From Conexivisphaerales archaeon (lineage in GTDB: Archaea > Thermoproteota > Nitrososphaeria > Conexivisphaerales > UBA164), in assembly GCA_030756715.1 (NCBI GenBank), contig JAVBJD010000002.1, positions 4,085-68,084 on the forward strand: a stretch of 64,000 nucleotides of DNA, in the 5' to 3' direction. Shown one piece after another: positions 8,432 to 52,504 of this stretch. Position 1 is the first letter of the stretch, and each line of letters begins with the position of its first letter. The notes under the pieces are model-generated. The model was not told where the DNA came from. It saw only the letters and a list, made by a program, of their open reading frames with translations, and did not search any database. The position numbers and the translations under genes were made by a program.

Positions 8432-9406
8432 CTAAAGCCCGACTATCTCTTTCAGGACAGATTTAAAGCCCGATATGATCTTTTTAGATTCCACATCCGA
8501 GTTGCCTATGTAGATCCCGAACCCGTTTAAAAGAGATTCCACGATGTTGTTAACAGAAAAGACCTGAATAAAATTATGATAATAGGTAACGGTTCTCTTA
8601 GGTGGCAACAGATGAAACACTATTGCATAGTCGCTCTTTGTAACGTTATGAAGTGTCTTTGAGACCGTTAAAAGTATAAAAGCGAGATCCTGAAGCTCTT
8701 TTTGAGTGAGTTTCGTTATAGGCTTATAGTGGGTTGTGCTGGTTATTCTTACCTCGTTTATTCTGGAAGGAGACCAAGGGTAGTACGCAAGCCAGTTTTC
8801 GTTGCTGTAAATAAGCTTTGAACCTGACTCTTCAGCTTTTATGACCTCGCATATAGGGCATGAGTTTTTCTCTTCAAACGACTTCATGAATTTGTTCATT
8901 TCTTCGTTTATCGTCTTAGGAACGAAAGGCAGCCCAATGACGTCAAAGTGCGGGTGTCCTTCCATGTCTGCGCCGTTTGCAGAAAGCATTATGACAGCTA
9001 TGTATATTATTCTGTTCAGGTCCGCAAGCTTCTTATAGGTTTCCTGTATAGCATAAAGCGCTTCGTATACCTGATCCTTCGAAAGTTCATGAAAAGGTAC
9101 GTGATCTTTACCTATAAATACCGAATAGTGTTTCCCCTTTGCTGGCTCGCTTTTGTATGGCCAGTCGTTCCACTCACCGGTGTACTTATCGTCCACTAAA
9201 GGCTGTGGGTGTTCCCCTACCAAAACGTCCCAGCTCTCTATATCATCCTTCTTTATCCTGAGAAAGCTTGACCTGTTAACGCTTTCCTTAGATATAGAAA
9301 AGATAGAACTAAAATCGTTATTACAAACGGGGCACTTAATAGGAAAGGTTACATCCCACTGTATATGGGAAACGCCGCTTATGTTATCGTACCTGATCTG
9401 AGGCAT
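8432..9406 (-). CDS. GalT-like (galactose-1-phosphate uridylyltransferase / HIT superfamily) protein
   Basis: CPVC and CPIC Zn sites, HPH nucleophile motif, PWSPSR..E.RI. Confidence 0.7.
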   Translation of the reverse strand: MPQIRYDNISGVSHIQWDVTFPIKCPVCNNDFSSIFSISKESVNRSSFLRIKKDDIESWDVLVGEHPQPLVDDKYTGEWNDWPYKSEPAKGKHYSVFIGKDHVPFHELSKDQVYEALYAIQETYKKLADLNRIIYIAVIMLSANGADMEGHPHFDVIGLPFVPKTINEEMNKFMKSFEEKNSCPICEVIKAEESGSKLIYSNENWLAYYPWSPSRINEVRITSTTHYKPITKLTQKELQDLAFILLTVSKTLHNVTKSDYAIVFHLLPPKRTVTYYHNFIQVFSVNNIVESLLNGFGIYIGNSDVESKKIISGFKSVLKEIVGL

Positions 9407-10177: not shown

Positions 10178-10798
10178 ATGGCTTTAACAGTATTTTTCGT
10201 AAGGCACGGTCATGCTGAAAACAACAGGGACGGATTCTTCCCTGATGACCAGAGATTCGATTACAAGCTAACTGAGAAAGGTGTGGAACAGGCTAAGCAG
10301 GCCGCTGAACTGCTTTATGACTCAAAAGCAGAAGCCATTTTTTCGAGCCCCGTTTACAGGGCTTACCAGACCGCGCAGATAATAGGAGAGAGGCTTTCTT
10401 TAAATGTTATTAAGGACGAAAGGCTTAGAGAAGTTGAGCTAGGCAACCTGAAAAATGCTCAAACAAAAGAAATATTTGAAAACGACCCGGACTGGTTCAT
10501 GGAATATTTTAACGTCAAAACCGTTTACGGTCTGGAAAAGTACGATAGCATAAGAAGAAGGATGCTCGATTTTGTAAAGAGCCTCTTTGAAAAGGGTTAC
10601 ACAAGAGTTATAGCGGTTAGCCATCTAGAACCAATAAGAGCTCTCGTAACTTTGCCTTTAAACGTAACTGGAAAAGAAGTCAGGAAAATAGAGATACACA
10701 ACGCATCTATAAGCACTTTGAGGTTCGAAGATCCAGGTCTAAATGAAATTAGGATACTTTCGGTAGACTGTGTTCCTATAAACCGTTTCTTTTCATGA
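10178..10798 (+). CDS. Histidine phosphatase superfamily protein (PGM-like)
   Basis: VRHG, LTEKG..QA, SSPVYRAYQTA, LREVELG, VSH. Confidence 0.87.
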   Translation: MALTVFFVRHGHAENNRDGFFPDDQRFDYKLTEKGVEQAKQAAELLYDSKAEAIFSSPVYRAYQTAQIIGERLSLNVIKDERLREVELGNLKNAQTKEIFENDPDWFMEYFNVKTVYGLEKYDSIRRRMLDFVKSLFEKGYTRVIAVSHLEPIRALVTLPLNVTGKEVRKIEIHNASISTLRFEDPGLNEIRILSVDCVPINRFFS

Positions 10799-10847
10799 TT
10801 AAGGATCTTTAAGCAAAAAATAAAAGCCTGCATTGAATAATTTTTTC

Positions 10848-11102
10848 ATGCAAATTATACTGTACGGAAGCCTCTCCAGAAAGCTGGGAAAGGTCCTTGA
10901 AATAGACGCTGATGGCCAGAAGACAATAAGGGATATATTACAAGAGCTTTCGACAAAAGAACCTGAACTTAAACCTGACAACCCGAACATACTTGTTTTT
11001 ATAAACGATGCAGAAGCTTCCTTGCTCGGAGGCCTCAGCTACAGGCCAAAGAACGAGGACAAAATTGCTGTATTGCCAGTAGCGCATGGTGGAGCGCAAT
11101 GA
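10848..11102 (+). CDS. Urm1/SAMP-like ubiquitin-fold (MoaD/ThiS family) protein ending HGG-AQ
   Basis: ILVFIND.E..LLGG and IAVLPVAHGG resemble Urm1; stop follows GG-A-Q; start at ATG 10848. Confidence 0.85.
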   Translation: MQIILYGSLSRKLGKVLEIDADGQKTIRDILQELSTKEPELKPDNPNILVFINDAEASLLGGLSYRPKNEDKIAVLPVAHGGAQ

Positions 11103-11434
11103 AGTTATACGTAGATAAGCAGCCGAATGAACCCTTTCTGTTTAAGGTGCACATAAAAGCAGAATGCATCAAGAGGATTGAAGTCCTTTATCTGATCGCG
11201 ATGCAGACCCTCTTTGCTTTGAAGAACAACGAGCTATTAGCAAAAACGCCGGAAATTGACTTTTTGATGAGGCTTGCCAGATCAGACCAGATATTTAAAG
11301 CAGAAAATGCATGTAGCGGCTCAGCTCATACGGTTTATGTTGTAGAATCTGGAGAAAATGAAAATCTTCAGATAAAAGAGGAGGATCTTGACGAAGCTGA
11401 GCTTTCTGCTTTAACGGTCTCAGAAAAAAGCTGA
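11099..11434 (+). CDS. cgi121: KEOPS complex subunit Cgi121-like protein
   Basis: LLAKTPEIDFLMRLARSDQIFKA matches the Cgi121 helix pattern; ATGA overlap with the Ubl gene. Confidence 0.65.
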   Translation: MKLYVDKQPNEPFLFKVHIKAECIKRIEVLYLIAMQTLFALKNNELLAKTPEIDFLMRLARSDQIFKAENACSGSAHTVYVVESGENENLQIKEEDLDEAELSALTVSEKS

Positions 11435-11472
11435 AAACGCTTATGTAAACAACATTTCTTCTGGTATATTAA

Positions 11473-12522
11473 ATGATTGATGATAGATTTTTGAATCGTT
11501 ATTCGAGGCAGATAGTGCTTAAAGAAATAGGTTTTGAAGGCCAAGAGAAGCTTCTAAAATCAAGGGTTACAGTCGTCGGCGTGGGAGGGCTTGGTTCAAT
11601 GGTAGCTTCGCTCCTTGCAAGGATGGGCTTTGGTGAAATCCACATAATTGACAGGGACATAGTGTCTTTGAGCGACCTGCACAGACAGATACTTTATGAC
11701 GAAGACGATCTGGGCCTGCCAAAAGTTTATGCTGCACAAAGAAAGCTTCAAAAGATAAACTCTGATGTAAAGGTTTTCCCGCATGCTATGAGCGCGAATA
11801 ATTATGAGCTCATGAAAGACGTAATCGATAGAACTGATGTAATAGTCGACGGCCTTGATAACATGAGGGCCAGGTTCAACGTCAACCTTTTGGCCGTTAC
11901 GCTAAAGAGGCCGTATGTGTTTGCGTCTGCCATAGAAAACTATGGAAACCTCAGCACTGTAATACCAGGAAAAACACCATGTCTGAACGAGTTCTATGGT
12001 GAATTCAGAGACAGAGAACTGCCAACGTGCGCTACGTCCGGTGTAAACCCGGCGATCGTCACCTCGGTTGCTTCTTTAGAAGTTAATGAGGCATTAAAAA
12101 TGATTGTTGAAGGCAGTTCGCTTTTCTCCGGAAAACTGGCGTTGCTGGACCTCAATCAGGGAAGCTTAGAGGCGATAGATCTAAAAAAGGACGAGGAATG
12201 CGAGGTGTGCAATATGAGAGCAAAACCAGAAAAAGAACCGGTTATAGAAATAAGCTGCAGCAAGGATGGTTTCTCTACAGTTTTTGTAAACAACTACGCT
12301 GGCAACATAGATACAGAAAATATTTCTCAAGTCCATGGAGTTAAGATTACAGCAAAAAATGACCTTTACGTCTCTGGAGCCTATGAAGATTCTTCTTTTA
12401 CTGTATTTAACAACGGTTATGCTGTTTTTCAGTTTAAATATTATGACGACCAGATAAAAAACAGGGTTGAAAGAATCTATGGAGAGCTCGTTGGGAGATT
12501 TAATAATAAGCAGGCTTTCTGA
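11473..12522 (+). CDS. ThiF/MoeB/E1-like ubiquitin-like-protein activating enzyme
   Basis: RYSRQ, GVGGLGS, DRDIVSLSDLHRQILY, DGLDN, PTCATSGV (catalytic Cys), CEVC, C-terminal extension. Confidence 0.9.
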   Translation: MIDDRFLNRYSRQIVLKEIGFEGQEKLLKSRVTVVGVGGLGSMVASLLARMGFGEIHIIDRDIVSLSDLHRQILYDEDDLGLPKVYAAQRKLQKINSDVKVFPHAMSANNYELMKDVIDRTDVIVDGLDNMRARFNVNLLAVTLKRPYVFASAIENYGNLSTVIPGKTPCLNEFYGEFRDRELPTCATSGVNPAIVTSVASLEVNEALKMIVEGSSLFSGKLALLDLNQGSLEAIDLKKDEECEVCNMRAKPEKEPVIEISCSKDGFSTVFVNNYAGNIDTENISQVHGVKITAKNDLYVSGAYEDSSFTVFNNGYAVFQFKYYDDQIKNRVERIYGELVGRFNNKQAF

Positions 12523-13153
12523 GGTTTACAGCATTAAAAAGGATGAATTTGCGCCTCTTAACTTCAAAGATCCATTCCTGATAATTGTTTCGATCATACT
12601 CAGCCAGAACACCACAGATAAAAACGCGCTTAAAGCAATGGAGAATTTAGTTTACAATGGACTTGAAAAACCCGAGGACTTTTTGAAAGCAGGAAGAGAA
12701 AAAATAAAAGACATGATCAGGGTTGCAGGGCTTTACGATCAAAAAGCTGAAGCCATAATCAGGCTTGCTAAGTGGAGCGTTCAAAAATATGGAGGAGACC
12801 TTTCTCTGTTAAAGAACGAAGATCCAGATCAAGTCTTCAATGAACTCACGAGCATCAAGGGAATAGGACCTAAAACAGCAGACGTTTTTCTCGTTTTTTA
12901 CTTAAGAGCTAGGACCTTCCCGATTGATACGCATATAAGGAGGGTTGTAAAGAGGCTCGGAATAGCTGACGGTAGTTACGATAAGATGAAAAAAAGGCTG
13001 CTGGAAATTTTCCCAGATCCCATGAAAGCTCACATACTTTTGATAAAACACGGGAGGACTACATGCAGGGCCAAAAACCCTAACTGTGAAAAATGTGTAC
13101 TAAATGACGTTTGCAGATATCATTTAACTTTAAAGACCGAAAAAAAGGCTTAG
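12479..13153 (+). CDS. nth: Endonuclease III (HhH-GPD DNA glycosylase)
   Basis: ILSQNTTD, KGIGPKTAD, FPIDTHIRRV, C-terminal CRAKNPNCEKCVLNDVC 4Fe-4S motif. Confidence 0.92.
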   Translation: MESSLGDLIISRLSEVYSIKKDEFAPLNFKDPFLIIVSIILSQNTTDKNALKAMENLVYNGLEKPEDFLKAGREKIKDMIRVAGLYDQKAEAIIRLAKWSVQKYGGDLSLLKNEDPDQVFNELTSIKGIGPKTADVFLVFYLRARTFPIDTHIRRVVKRLGIADGSYDKMKKRLLEIFPDPMKAHILLIKHGRTTCRAKNPNCEKCVLNDVCRYHLTLKTEKKA

Positions 13154-50736: not shown

Positions 50737-51984
50737 ATGCAGATAAAAGTGTTAGGTGCCGGAGGAAACATAGGTAATTCCGGCATTTTGATAAAAGATG
50801 ATTCAACTAGTTTACTCTTAGATTACGGATTAAATCCAGGTAAAAATATAGTACACCCATTACATGTAAGGCCAAAGGACGTTACCGCACTTATTACGAC
50901 TCACGCTCACCTTGATCATATAGGCTACGAACCTTACCTTTACATAGACGGGAACGTGCCTCATTATGCTACTAAAGTCACAATAGAGCTTACAGAACTT
51001 CTCTTATACGATCTACTGAACATTTCTGGCGATAAACTTCCGTTTACACAGCAAGAAGTAAAGAAACTCGTAAGGATGAGCAAAGCGGTAAATTATAACG
51101 AACCGTTTAACATAAACAATTTGGAATTAGAATTTCTGAACGCTGGGCATATTCCAGGAAGTTCTATGGTTTATGTAAAGGGAAGCAAAAAAGTTCTATA
51201 TACAGGAGATGTAAACCACATACAAACAAGGCTCTTGGAACCAGCTTCTTATGATCTACCAGAAGTAGATTATTTTGTATCCGAATGCACTTATGCCATG
51301 CAGGACCACCCTGAAAGAGACCAAGAAGAAAAAAGGCTTATAGATTTTTCAAACGAAATAATAGAAAATGGCGGAACTGTCCTTATTCCGGCCTTTGCTG
51401 TCGGAAGAGCCCAGGAGCTTGCTGAAATATTTTATTCCTATGGGTTTAAACACGACGTTTATATGGACGGAATGGCTCTCACGGTCAACGACATACTTTT
51501 AAATAATCCACAATTTTTAAGGGACCCAGAATTTTTAAGAAAGGCTCTAGGCAGAGTAAATTACGTCAACGGGTGGGAAGACAGAAGAAAAATAATAAAG
51601 GAACCATCCGCGATAATTTCGCCCGCAGGAATGCTAATGGGTGGAGCTTCTGTATTTTACAGCAAAAAGATTTCAAAAAATCCTAATAACGGCATAGCAA
51701 TTGTAGCTTATCAGGTTGAAGGAACACCTGGCAGATCATTGGTTGAAGACGGTACTTTAAATTTCAACGGAAATCATTACAACGTTAATGCAAAGGTAAG
51801 TAAGTTCGACCTTTCTAGCCATTCAGGTAGATCACAACTGCTGAGCATGTTCAAGTCATTAAAAGGTTCCCCAAAAATAATTCTCGTACACGGCGAACAG
51901 GAAAGCTGTGAAGCTTTTGCGTTAGAGCTAAATAGTATGGGGCTAAACGCTACATGTGCAAGGACGGGTGAAATAATTGAGTGA
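50737..51984 (+). CDS. MBL-fold beta-CASP ribonuclease (aCPSF1b/aCPSF2-like)
   Basis: LLDYG, THAHLDH, AGHIPGS, YTGD, FAVGRAQE, SSHSG, VHGE; start at ATG 50737. Confidence 0.92.
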   Translation: MQIKVLGAGGNIGNSGILIKDDSTSLLLDYGLNPGKNIVHPLHVRPKDVTALITTHAHLDHIGYEPYLYIDGNVPHYATKVTIELTELLLYDLLNISGDKLPFTQQEVKKLVRMSKAVNYNEPFNINNLELEFLNAGHIPGSSMVYVKGSKKVLYTGDVNHIQTRLLEPASYDLPEVDYFVSECTYAMQDHPERDQEEKRLIDFSNEIIENGGTVLIPAFAVGRAQELAEIFYSYGFKHDVYMDGMALTVNDILLNNPQFLRDPEFLRKALGRVNYVNGWEDRRKIIKEPSAIISPAGMLMGGASVFYSKKISKNPNNGIAIVAYQVEGTPGRSLVEDGTLNFNGNHYNVNAKVSKFDLSSHSGRSQLLSMFKSLKGSPKIILVHGEQESCEAFALELNSMGLNATCARTGEIIE

Positions 51985-52504
51985 AAAAAAGATAAACAAA
52001 CTTGAAATCGATCTGTATTTTCTTAACGGGTACGTTACGAGATACATTGACAGTTATAAAATCGCGGCATCTTTATACAATATGATCCTAAAAGAGCACA
52101 ATGACGTTGACCTTAAGGTAGATTTCAAACAGTTTGACGGTGATTATATATTAAGAGAAATAAAAGAAATAGTTCCCAAGAATCATCATTATGTATTTAT
52201 AGTTTCAGGCTTGCCAATGATCGATTCCTCTGGATCAAGGATTTTTGGTATTGTCGACCCAAAAGAAAGGGTCGCCGTGCTTAGCGAAGACAGGCTGGTT
52301 TCAGATCCAAAGCTTGCCAAAGAAAGGATAATGAAAGAAGCGGCGCACCTTATAGGCCACTTCTGGGGTCTTGGACACTGTTTAAATCAAACATGTATTA
52401 TGAGCTATGCAAAATCATTAAAGGACGTTGACAATAAATTGCCGATGCTCTGCAAGTCTTGCCAAGAAGACTTTAAGAAAGCTTATAATGAAATGATTAA
52501 ATGA
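51977..52504 (+). CDS. Archaemetzincin-like Zn protein lacking the catalytic Glu
   Basis: KEAAHLIGHFWGLGHC..C.MSYA..L.DVD.K...C..C. Confidence 0.82.
   Translation: MSEKKINKLEIDLYFLNGYVTRYIDSYKIAASLYNMILKEHNDVDLKVDFKQFDGDYILREIKEIVPKNHHYVFIVSGLPMIDSSGSRIFGIVDPKERVAVLSEDRLVSDPKLAKERIMKEAAHLIGHFWGLGHCLNQTCIMSYAKSLKDVDNKLPMLCKSCQEDFKKAYNEMIK

What the first reader, a model, noticed from the sequence alone, without database searches (positions are those of the whole stretch)
10848..11434. Urm1-like modifier with a blocked diglycine (HGG-AQ-stop) locked onto cgi121
Seen: ...cat ggt gga gcg caa TGA; the stop overlaps the cgi121 ATG (ATGA), cgi121 is in the -1 frame, and GGAG inside the GG codons could act as its Shine-Dalgarno. 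Known: E1 enzymes adenylate a free C-terminal GG, and prokaryotic Urm1/SAMP/MoaD proteins usually end exactly at GG. Ubiquitin precursors need a protease such as JAMM to mature. I recall reports of Ubl-Cgi121 linkage or fusion in Thaumarchaeota (verify). Inference: either a precursor-type archaeal Ubl needing processing, or a split/frameshifted Ubl-Cgi121 fusion tying sulfur transfer or urmylation to KEOPS t6A synthesis.
Basis: partly seen in the sequence, partly recalled or inferred. Interest (0 to 1): 0.65.

Follow-up and report, generated by a model that had tools for sequence, protein, structure and literature searches.

The report
Split Urm1-like/Cgi121 gene pair
A hot-spring archaeon encodes a ubiquitin-like sulfur-carrier protein with two extra residues after its reactive Gly-Gly. 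Its stop codon overlaps the start of the tRNA-modification gene cgi121, making this a conserved split version of a gene fusion known since 2010 rather than an error.

Summary
Window 10848-11102 encodes an 84-aa ThiS/Urm1-like protein ending HGG-AQ-stop. Its TGA overlaps the ATG of a compact 111-aa Cgi121 (11099-11434), and a ThiF-type E1 follows (11473-12522).

It is not an assembly error. Contigs from four runs show no indel, and 22 distinct orthologues all carry exactly two residues after HGG, as 10 different dipeptides.

The closest relatives outside this clade are fused Ubl-Cgi121 proteins with an internal HGG, the fusion reported in Thaumarchaea by Makarova & Koonin (2010). At the same syntenic locus, one sister lineage is fused (193 aa). 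Another is split and ends exactly at HGG-stop. Trees place the tail-bearing clade as a single group next to, or nested among, fused forms, so the tail is most simply a leftover of the fusion linker.

Best reading: a short pro-form, translationally coupled to Cgi121 and trimmed after Gly-Gly before E1 activation. JAMM-processed SAMP precursors are documented in Caldiarchaeum.

This is a modest new variant of a known kind.

The parts
10812..10827 (+). A/T-rich box AGCAAAAAATAAAAGC about 20 nt upstream of the Ubl ATG; candidate archaeal BRE/TATA for a leaderless Ubl-cgi121 transcript
   Evidence: Conserved in 6 of 7 aligned orthologous upstream regions. Its promoter role is inferred from position and composition only.
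10848..11102 (+). Urm1/ThiS-like ubiquitin-fold protein, 84 aa, ending HGG-AQ-stop
   Evidence: Pfam ThiS 9e-9 and Urm1 8e-6, both above gathering score. The family profile's best PDB match is mouse Urm1 1wgk, 4e-7. There are 22 orthologues of 84-86 aa.
11085..11093 (+). Invariant His-Gly-Gly codons (residues 80-82)
   Evidence: H80, G81 and G82 are invariant in alignment A2. HGG is also kept in fused and GG-stop relatives.
11094..11099 (+). Two-codon tail (Ala-Gln) after the diglycine; sequence varies and length is fixed in the clade
   Evidence: Tails are AQ, IQ, SK, KN, HD, RD, GQ, QY, KY and AI across 22 sequences, always 2 residues.
11099..11102 (+). ATGA overlap: the cgi121 start codon shares 3 nt with the Ubl TGA stop (termination-reinitiation coupling)
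   Evidence: An (A/T)TGA overlap is conserved in 7 loci with an ATG or TTG start. L005 uses a TAA stop with an upstream ATG, and sister L047 overlaps directly on the last Gly codon.
11099..11434 (+). Compact Cgi121 (KEOPS subunit) homologue, 111 aa
   Evidence: NCBIfam NF011465 Cgi121 gives 2e-7, 31 bits, below the cut-off of 40. It aligns with 141-aa Nitrososphaerales proteins named Cgi121 and shares QT..A...LLAK.PEIDFL.RLA..QI. The family profile hits P. furiosus Cgi121 1zd0 at 3e-10 and M. jannaschii Cgi121 at 0.014.
11434..11453 (+). Conserved box AAAACGCTTATGTAAACAAC between the cgi121 stop and the E1 start; candidate separate promoter for E1
   Evidence: Conserved in 7 aligned loci about 20 nt upstream of the E1 ATG. 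Its function is inferred.
11473..12522 (+). ThiF/MoeB/UbaA-type E1-like adenylyltransferase, 349 aa, with a C-terminal alpha/beta domain of about 90 residues
   Evidence: Pfam ThiF 1e-64. E. coli ThiF matches at 3e-39 over residues 2-247, with the GxGxxG motif, the Asp of DGLDNM and Cys186 aligned to ThiF's CRTAGV cysteine. The AF2 model has pLDDT 86.7, and Foldseek gives ThiF 1zud TM 0.92, rmsd 2.1 A. C186 is invariant in 13 E1s.

Best explanation
This is the split form of the Urm1-like/Cgi121 gene of Nitrososphaeria.

Proposed mechanism:
1. One probably leaderless transcript carries the Ubl and cgi121. Ribosomes finishing the Ubl at TGA restart at the overlapping ATG or TTG, so Cgi121 output is tied to Ubl output.
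2. The Ubl is made as a short pro-form, HGG plus two disposable residues. The tail is most simply what remains of the linker of an ancestral Ubl-Cgi121 fusion after a frame-shifting fission. Its length is now held by the overlapping start codon.
3. Before use, a Gly-Gly-specific peptidase removes the tail. A JAMM/MPN+ enzyme encoded elsewhere is the most likely candidate.
4. The neighbouring ThiF-type E1 can then adenylate Gly82, for sulfur transfer (Urm1/SAMP-type tRNA thiolation) and/or protein conjugation.

Shown: the anatomy, its conservation, family memberships, orthology to fused and GG-stop forms, and an apparently intact E1 active site.
Inferred: the promoters, translational coupling, tail removal, the identity of the peptidase, and the downstream chemistry.
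For: Anatomy and families.

Not an artefact: no indels in contigs from 4 runs, and 22 orthologues all carry a 2-residue tail.

Closest relatives: an exhaustive profile search of 1.84 billion representatives finds N-terminal-Ubl/Cgi121 fusions with an internal HGG as the nearest relatives outside the clade (P0088 at 2e-22, also P0090-92, and Nitrosopumilaceae proteins of about 259 aa). Sources annotate these as MoaD/Cgi121.

Same synteny (His_Phos x2 - Ubl/Cgi121 - ThiF - HhH-GPD), three junction states:
- fused in L043;
- HGG-stop with an ATGA overlap in L047;
- HGG+2 here and in L001-L005, L028 and L040.

Trees: in the E1 tree the tail clade is monophyletic (100/99) and sister to the fused L043 plus GG-stop L047 pair. 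In the Ubl+Cgi121 tree it is nested among fused forms.

Conservation pattern: HGG is invariant in all three states, while the sequence after it is free. Close pairs differ in the tail (RD/HD) while identical elsewhere.

Precedents:
- C. subterraneum SAMP precursors are cleaved by CsJAMM, and the 9-residue CsUb tail by CsRpn11 (PMC6043591).
- HvJAMM1 cleaves linear SAMP1-MoaE fusions (PMC4443979).
- The two thaumarchaeal genomes with the fusion each encode two JAB proteases (Table S1 of PMC2948915).
Against: - No JAMM/MPN gene lies in the 64-kb window or in the flanks of related loci (motif scan; Pfam on 20 ORFs, mostly small; neighbourhoods).
- There is no proteomic or RNA evidence; no RNA run holds the locus.
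- The fixed tail length is also explained purely by the overlapping start codon, so it is not independent evidence for a pro-peptide.
- Fused relatives can equally be read as showing that the Gly-Gly need not be free.
- Polarity (fission rather than fusion) rests on parsimony over moderately supported nodes (86/74).
Confidence: 0.6

Rival explanations
1. The tail is never removed. In this lineage, and in the fused relatives, the Ubl is not activated at Gly-Gly. It acts as a non-covalent ubiquitin-fold partner or domain of Cgi121/KEOPS, and the neighbouring E1 serves another carrier.
For: Many relatives have the Ubl covalently fused upstream of Cgi121 with an internal HGG. No peptidase gene was found nearby. 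The Ubl-Cgi121 pairing persists even where E1 is not adjacent, as in AOA loci L044 and L046.
Against: HGG is invariant across all states, including lineages where it is exactly C-terminal (L047, L044, and 98 of 150 family representatives). That invariance is hard to explain without a role for the diglycine. The Ubl-Cgi121-E1 order is conserved in three related clades. Processing of linear Ubl precursors by JAMM enzymes is documented in a related thermophile.
Confidence: 0.2
2. The tail exists only for RNA-level reasons. It is six nucleotides of spacer placing the Gly-Gly codons, as a Shine-Dalgarno-like element, upstream of the overlapping cgi121 start. It has no dedicated maturation system and is nibbled by general carboxypeptidases or simply tolerated.
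For: A GGAG or GGTG core lies 4-7 nt upstream of the start in the window, L001, L003 and L040. The last tail codon always supplies the A or T of the start codon. Tail residues are unconstrained.
Against: L002 and L004 have no SD-core match. Sister L047 achieves the same ATGA overlap with no tail at all, so coupling does not require the spacer. By the established E1 mechanism, the terminal Gly carboxylate is what gets adenylated, so a tolerated tail would block activation.
Confidence: 0.15
3. The split is an artefact, or is bypassed. Either a sequencing or assembly frameshift broke a true fusion, or programmed -1 frameshifting makes a fused Ubl-Cgi121 protein.
For: cgi121 lies in the -1 frame, and that frame is open for about 40 codons upstream of its ATG (read from the sequence). 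Fused orthologues exist.
Against: Contigs from four runs show no indel. Eight loci and 22 proteins share the state. Start codons (ATG/TTG) are conserved at the overlap. No X XXY YYZ slippery heptamer lies before the stop in any of the loci tested; the only pattern match, in L040, lies downstream of the Ubl stop.
Confidence: 0.03

Closest known systems
Ubl-Cgi121 fusion protein of Thaumarchaeota (Makarova & Koonin 2010, Archaea 2010:710303, PMC2948915)
   Same: The same two protein families in the same order (Urm1-like Ubl with HGG, then Cgi121) and the same phylum. A fused orthologue sits at the same syntenic locus in a sister lineage (L043). Nitrosopumilaceae fusions hit Pfam ThiS plus CGI-121.
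   Different: Here the two halves are separate cistrons in different frames. The Ubl stops two codons after GG, Cgi121 is a compact 111-aa form, and a ThiF-type E1 follows directly. In ammonia oxidisers the neighbours are instead S17e, THUMP and Sua5.
SAMP precursors and CsJAMM, and CsUb precursor and CsRpn11, of Caldiarchaeum subterraneum (Fuchs et al. 2018, PMC6043591)
   Same: Archaeal beta-grasp modifiers encoded with residues after the Gly-Gly that must be cut off, shown biochemically. The host is a thermophile. My own recollection is that GTDB places Caldiarchaeum in the same class as this organism.
   Different: In Caldiarchaeum the JAMM gene (Csub_C0703) is next to the SAMP gene (Csub_C0702). 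Here no protease gene is nearby and no cleavage has been shown. There is also no E2/E3 operon here.
Eukaryotic Urm1-Uba4 system
   Same: The C-terminal half is Urm1-like, including the HGG ending (ILVfINDa..LLGgL.Y......l...HGG; mouse Urm1 at 4e-7). The partner is a ThiF/MoeB-type E1, and Uba4 is among its structural matches.
   Different: Urm1 ends exactly at GG and needs no processing. Uba4 carries a rhodanese domain, whereas this E1 has a different C-terminal alpha/beta domain. The NCBIfam Urm1_like equivalog score is far below cut-off (27.6 against 70).
Eukaryotic ubiquitin precursor genes (ubiquitin-ribosomal protein fusions; polyubiquitin with extra C-terminal residues)
   Same: The modifier's Gly-Gly is followed either by a few disposable residues or by a whole unrelated protein of the translation apparatus. 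The states vary between lineages while the GG stays invariant.
   Different: The analogy rests on gene architecture only. The family is different (Urm1/ThiS-like, not ubiquitin), and cleavage is unproven here.
Haloferax volcanii SAMP/UbaA/HvJAMM1 system
   Same: A ThiS/MoaD-type Ubl plus a single ThiF-type E1 used for both sulfur transfer and conjugation. HvJAMM1 can cut linear SAMP1-MoaE fusions (PMC4443979).
   Different: From my own recollection, SAMPs end at GG. There is no Cgi121 linkage. The NCBIfam SAMP1 and UbaA equivalog scores are below cut-off here.

Membership tests
ThiS/MoaD/Urm1 beta-grasp sulfur-carrier/modifier superfamily | Sequence match to the family profile above the curated threshold | tested here: met
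   Pfam ThiS 36.1 bits (cut-off 22.5) and Urm1 26.6 bits (cut-off 21.8).
ThiS/MoaD/Urm1 beta-grasp sulfur-carrier/modifier superfamily | Gly-Gly at the very C-terminus of the gene product | tested here: not met
   GG is at residues 81-82 of 84, followed by Ala-Gln. This holds for all 22 clade members. 98 of the 150 closest family representatives do end at GG.
NCBIfam Urm1_like (NF053661) / SAMP1 (NF041918) equivalogs | Score at or above the equivalog cut-off | tested here: not met
   27.6 against 70 and 24.5 against 60. It is Urm1-like in motif but not a member of these curated equivalogs.
Cgi121 (KEOPS subunit) | Sequence match to curated Cgi121 models | tested here: inconclusive
   There is no Pfam PF08617 hit for the 111-aa protein. 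NCBIfam NF011465 gives 31.1 bits, below the cut-off of 40. However, the family profile hits P. furiosus Cgi121 1zd0 at 3e-10. Homologues are named Cgi121, and a fused Nitrosopumilaceae relative of the family hits PF08617.
Cgi121 (KEOPS subunit) | Cgi121 fold | tested here: inconclusive
   The AF2 model has pLDDT 66.8. Six of the seven top Foldseek hits are Cgi121 structures, but all have E >= 0.18.
Cgi121 (KEOPS subunit) | Presence of partner KEOPS genes (Kae1, Bud32, Pcc1) in the genome and binding to Bud32 | not testable with these tools
ThiF/MoeB/UbaA E1-like adenylyltransferases | Family profile match, Rossmann GxGxxG motif, catalytic Asp and conserved Cys, ThiF fold | tested here: met
   Pfam ThiF 218 bits. 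The alignment to E. coli ThiF keeps VGVGGLGS, DGLDNM and C186. Foldseek gives 1zud TM 0.92. The first Zn-site CxxC is degenerate (C-L-N-E) and the second is kept (CEVC), read.
Precursor-type Ubl processed by JAMM/MPN+ protease | Residues after GG in the primary translation product | tested here: met
   A two-residue tail conserved in length.
Precursor-type Ubl processed by JAMM/MPN+ protease | A cognate JAMM/MPN+ protease in the genome and cleavage after GG | not testable with these tools
   None was found in the 64-kb window. Cleavage needs experiment.

The most novel reading that the evidence does not exclude
In Nitrososphaeria and related Thermoproteota, everything after the invariant HGG is a disposable pro-sequence. 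It can be nothing, two residues, or a whole Cgi121.

The Urm1-like modifier would then be made, like eukaryotic ubiquitin, as a precursor released by a Gly-Gly-specific peptidase. The KEOPS tRNA-binding subunit would be produced in fixed ratio with it, from the same polypeptide or the same coupled message.

The three junction states at one orthologous locus would be neutral drift permitted by that peptidase. This would be an archaeal counterpart of ubiquitin-fusion genes, linking tRNA thiolation/urmylation with t6A synthesis.
Probability: 0.4. Interest if true: 0.6.

Novelty: new variant of a known kind. Interest (0 to 1): 0.4.

Why it matters
The Ubl-Cgi121 fusion has been known from genomics since 2010, but I found no experimental test of whether the Ubl half is ever freed and activated. 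Two full-text searches gave none.

This clade and its two sister lineages form a natural allelic series at one orthologous locus: GG-stop, GG+2 and a full fusion. Each has the presumed E1 next door. Small thermostable proteins like these are convenient for asking three questions:
- Is there a Gly-Gly-specific processing activity?
- Does the E1 require a free GG?
- Is Cgi121/KEOPS physically or only stoichiometrically tied to the Urm1-like pathway?

The answers bear on how ubiquitin-style precursor processing arose before eukaryotes.

If the tail is simply a tolerated remnant, the finding is ordinary comparative-genomics detail.

Tried and rejected
1. **Assembly error.** Rejected by contigs from 4 runs with no indel and by clade-wide conservation.
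2. **Conserved Shine-Dalgarno in the Gly-Gly codons.** GGAG occurs only in this window, GGTG in 4 loci and nothing in L002/L004. L047 couples without any tail.
3. **Programmed frameshift.** No slippery heptamer before the Ubl stop.
4. **JAMM nearby.** A regex for HxH..S..D over all six-frame ORFs of the window and 39 loci gave no credible hit. Pfam on 20 window ORFs, mostly small, found none and only a Peptidase_M54.
6. **Word-indexed search with a concatenated Ubl+Cgi121 profile.** It found stand-alone Cgi121s but missed the fusions. The exhaustive HMM search found them.
7. **Fold confirmation of Cgi121.** The model was too weak (pLDDT 67) and Foldseek was not significant.
8. **RNA evidence for the bicistronic transcript.** No RNA run holds the locus.
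9. **tblastn and HMM of the Ubl against distant E1 loci** (Bathyarchaeia, Methanomethylicia). Nothing reached significance; the best stray hits were E >= 0.38. The Ubl-Cgi121-E1 arrangement was therefore seen only in the window clade and its near relatives L043 and L047.

Full report
**What is there.**
- The + strand from 10848 encodes an 84-aa protein, MQIILYGSL...LPVAHGGAQ. Its last codons are CAT GGT GGA GCG CAA TGA at 11085-11102.
- It matches Pfam ThiS (36.1 bits) and Urm1 (26.6 bits), both above gathering score.
- A profile of the family finds eukaryotic Urm1 as its best solved relative (mouse 1wgk at 4e-7). The shared block is ILVxINDa..LLGxL.Y......l...HGG.
- The next ORF starts at the ATG at 11099, overlapping the TGA by ATGA in the -1 frame, and encodes 111 aa.
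- That ORF has no Pfam hit and a sub-threshold NCBIfam Cgi121 hit (31 against 40 bits).
- It nevertheless aligns with 141-aa Nitrososphaerales proteins named Cgi121 through an invariant QT..A....LLAk.PEIDFL.RLA..QI block. It differs by two deletions.
- The family profile hits Pyrococcus Cgi121 (1zd0, 3e-10) and M. jannaschii Cgi121 (0.014).
- An AF2 model was weak (pLDDT 67). Foldseek ranked Cgi121 structures first but without significance.
- Thirty-eight nucleotides further on begins a 349-aa ThiF/MoeB-type E1 (Pfam ThiF 1e-64). The nucleotide-binding glycines, the DGLDNM aspartate and Cys186 align to E. coli ThiF. The modelled fold is ThiF-like (TM 0.92), followed by a beta-beta-alpha-beta4-alpha C-terminal domain of about 90 residues.
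[quoted passage not shown] I did not test whether this one is TBP-like.

**Is it an artefact?** No.
- Logan contigs from four runs of two hot-spring samples cover 10700-11700 without any indel or joint. A 97.5%-identical strain differs at the junction only by a synonymous GGA>GGG change.
- Orthologues from at least eight divergent Nitrososphaeria MAG loci keep the order Ubl - Cgi121 - E1. E1 identity falls to 57% and Ubl identity to 63%. All keep a stop two codons after HGG.
- In seven of these loci the TGA overlaps an ATG or TTG start of cgi121. In L005 the stop is TAA and the likely start is an ATG 17 nt upstream.
- In total 22 distinct proteins of the clade all have exactly two residues after HGG, as ten different dipeptides: AQ, IQ, SK, KN, HD, RD, GQ, QY, KY and AI.
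- One pair of sequences is identical except for the tail (RD versus HD).
- So the tail is fixed in length and free in sequence, while H80-G81-G82 are invariant.

**What it is related to.**
- An exhaustive profile search of 1.84 billion cluster representatives shows that the nearest relatives outside the clade are longer proteins. The same Ubl sits at the N-terminus, HGG is internal, and a Cgi121 domain follows.
- Examples are P0088 (193 aa, 2e-22...PAAHGGSEAPQ...), P0090-92, a large group of about 256-261 aa, and a deeper group of about 250-280 aa.
- Sources annotate them as MoaD/Cgi121. One member of the 259-aa cluster is from a Nitrosopumilaceae MAG and hits Pfam ThiS plus CGI-121.
- This is the fusion Makarova & Koonin reported in 2010 as conserved in all Thaumarchaea then available (PMC2948915).

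**The informative comparison is at the orthologous locus.**
- The neighbourhood His_Phos(-) / His_Phos(+) / Ubl-Cgi121 / ThiF-E1 / HhH-GPD glycosylase is shared by the window, by L040 (the most divergent tail-bearing relative) and by L043. In L043 the Ubl and Cgi121 are one 193-aa protein.
- L047 has the same core (Ubl, 111-aa Cgi121, E1, HhH-GPD). There the Ubl ends exactly HGG-TGA, and the cgi121 ATG overlaps the last Gly codon (GGATGA).
- An ammonia-oxidiser-type locus (L044) has a fourth arrangement: an 85-aa Ubl ending HGG-TAG, a 4-nt gap, then a 141-aa Cgi121, next to S17e, THUMP and Sua5.
- In an E1 tree the tail-bearing clade is monophyletic (100/99) and sister to L043 (fused) plus L047 (GG-stop) (98/93).
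- In a Ubl+Cgi121 tree it is nested among fused forms, with fused P0088 as sister (86/74), and the outgroups are fused.
- Parsimony therefore favours a fused ancestor and one fission at the base of this clade. The distance from GG to the conserved LFKV of Cgi121 is 51 nt in P0088 and 44 nt here. That is not a multiple of three apart, which is consistent with a frame-shifting event. This polarity is an inference on moderate support.

**How it probably works.**
- Conserved A/T-rich boxes lie about 20 nt upstream of the Ubl ATG and of the E1 ATG, and none lies before cgi121.
- I infer two units: a leaderless Ubl-cgi121 message, on which cgi121 depends on termination-reinitiation at the overlap, and a separate E1 message.
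- By the established mechanism of ThiF/MoeB/Uba-type E1s, the terminal Gly carboxylate is adenylated, so the two extra residues must be removed before activation.
- HGG stays invariant whether it is terminal, followed by two residues or followed by a whole protein. Among the 150 closest family representatives, 98 end at GG, 16 have 1-3 extra residues, 11 have 4-30 and 24 have more than 30, nearly all of them Cgi121 fusions (one gave no locatable GG).
- This pattern is what a Gly-Gly-specific processing activity would permit.
- Such processing is documented. CsJAMM cuts C. subterraneum SAMP precursors, and CsRpn11 removes nine residues from CsUb (PMC6043591). HvJAMM1 cuts linear SAMP1-MoaE fusions (PMC4443979).
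- Both thaumarchaeal genomes analysed in 2010 carry two JAB proteases.
- An unchecked note from this scan says another MoaD-like gene in this same genome ends GG-Cys.

**What is missing.**
- I found no JAMM gene in the window or in any neighbourhood.
- No RNA or protein data exist for the locus.
- The fixed tail length is fully explained by the overlapping start codon, so it does not by itself argue for a pro-peptide.
- The alternative remains open: that the Ubl is a non-activated partner of Cgi121, in line with the fusions.

**Verdict.**
The 'split Ubl-Cgi121 fusion' reading is supported as evolutionary history. The 'assembly error' and 'private stop-loss' readings are refuted. The 'precursor needing processing' reading is the best mechanistic inference but is untested.
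- This is a new variant of a known kind. Earlier notes of this scan describe the same architecture in a sister genome (GG-QY) and the fused forms in ammonia oxidisers.
- Its main value is as a clean natural series for testing whether archaeal Urm1-like proteins are made as precursors.

Noticed in passing
window 51977-52501 (+): A 175-aa ORF matching Peptidase_M54 (archaemetzincin) at 1.3e-17. It is the only peptidase seen among the 20 window ORFs scanned, and nothing links it to the Ubl.
   Followed up: no
window 8435-9406 (-): A 324-aa protein with no Pfam hit, containing GHPHFDVIG. ORFs of similar size without Pfam hits are present in L040 (326 aa) and L043 (322 or 324 aa). A first-reader note calls it GalT-like.
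   Followed up: no
window 12467-12522: The HhH-GPD/EndoIII-like glycosylase ORF (12467-13153, TTG start) overlaps the 3' end of the E1 gene by 56 nt. Called genes in L040 and L043 overlap similarly, by 29 and 23 nt, so E1 and the glycosylase may be co-transcribed.
   Followed up: partly
L044 3921-4742 and L049 4151-4999: In ammonia-oxidiser-type loci, a 273-282-aa protein with an LDGMHR motif (ParB/sulfiredoxin-like by eye) lies between S17e and the Ubl or Ubl-Cgi121 gene. It abuts or overlaps the start of that gene.
   Followed up: no
L050 4773-5840: A deeper-branching fused Ubl-Cgi121 (279 aa, ...PVSHGGFSS...) lies directly after S17e, beside a thermosome gene and a HerA-like ATPase. This is the neighbourhood Makarova & Koonin described for stand-alone Urm1 of Sulfolobales.
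   Followed up: partly
L046 5769-6886 and L044 5423-6540: In ammonia oxidisers the Ubl-Cgi121 gene(s) sit tail-to-tail with THUMP and Sua5/TsaC genes. Sua5 belongs to the t6A pathway. This link is absent from the window's neighbourhood, where an E1 follows instead.
   Followed up: partly
same genome, another contig (scan note e1-5033419): An unchecked first-reader note reports a second MoaD/SAMP-like gene in this genome ending GG-Cys-stop. If true, post-GG residues are not unique to the Cgi121-linked Ubl in this organism.
   Followed up: no
E1 residues 165-175 (window about 11965-11997): The first zinc-site CxxC of ThiF/MoeB reads C-L-N-E here, so the second Cys is lost, while the second pair (CEVC, residues 243-246) is kept. 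C170, C243 and C246 are invariant in 13 relatives.
   Followed up: partly
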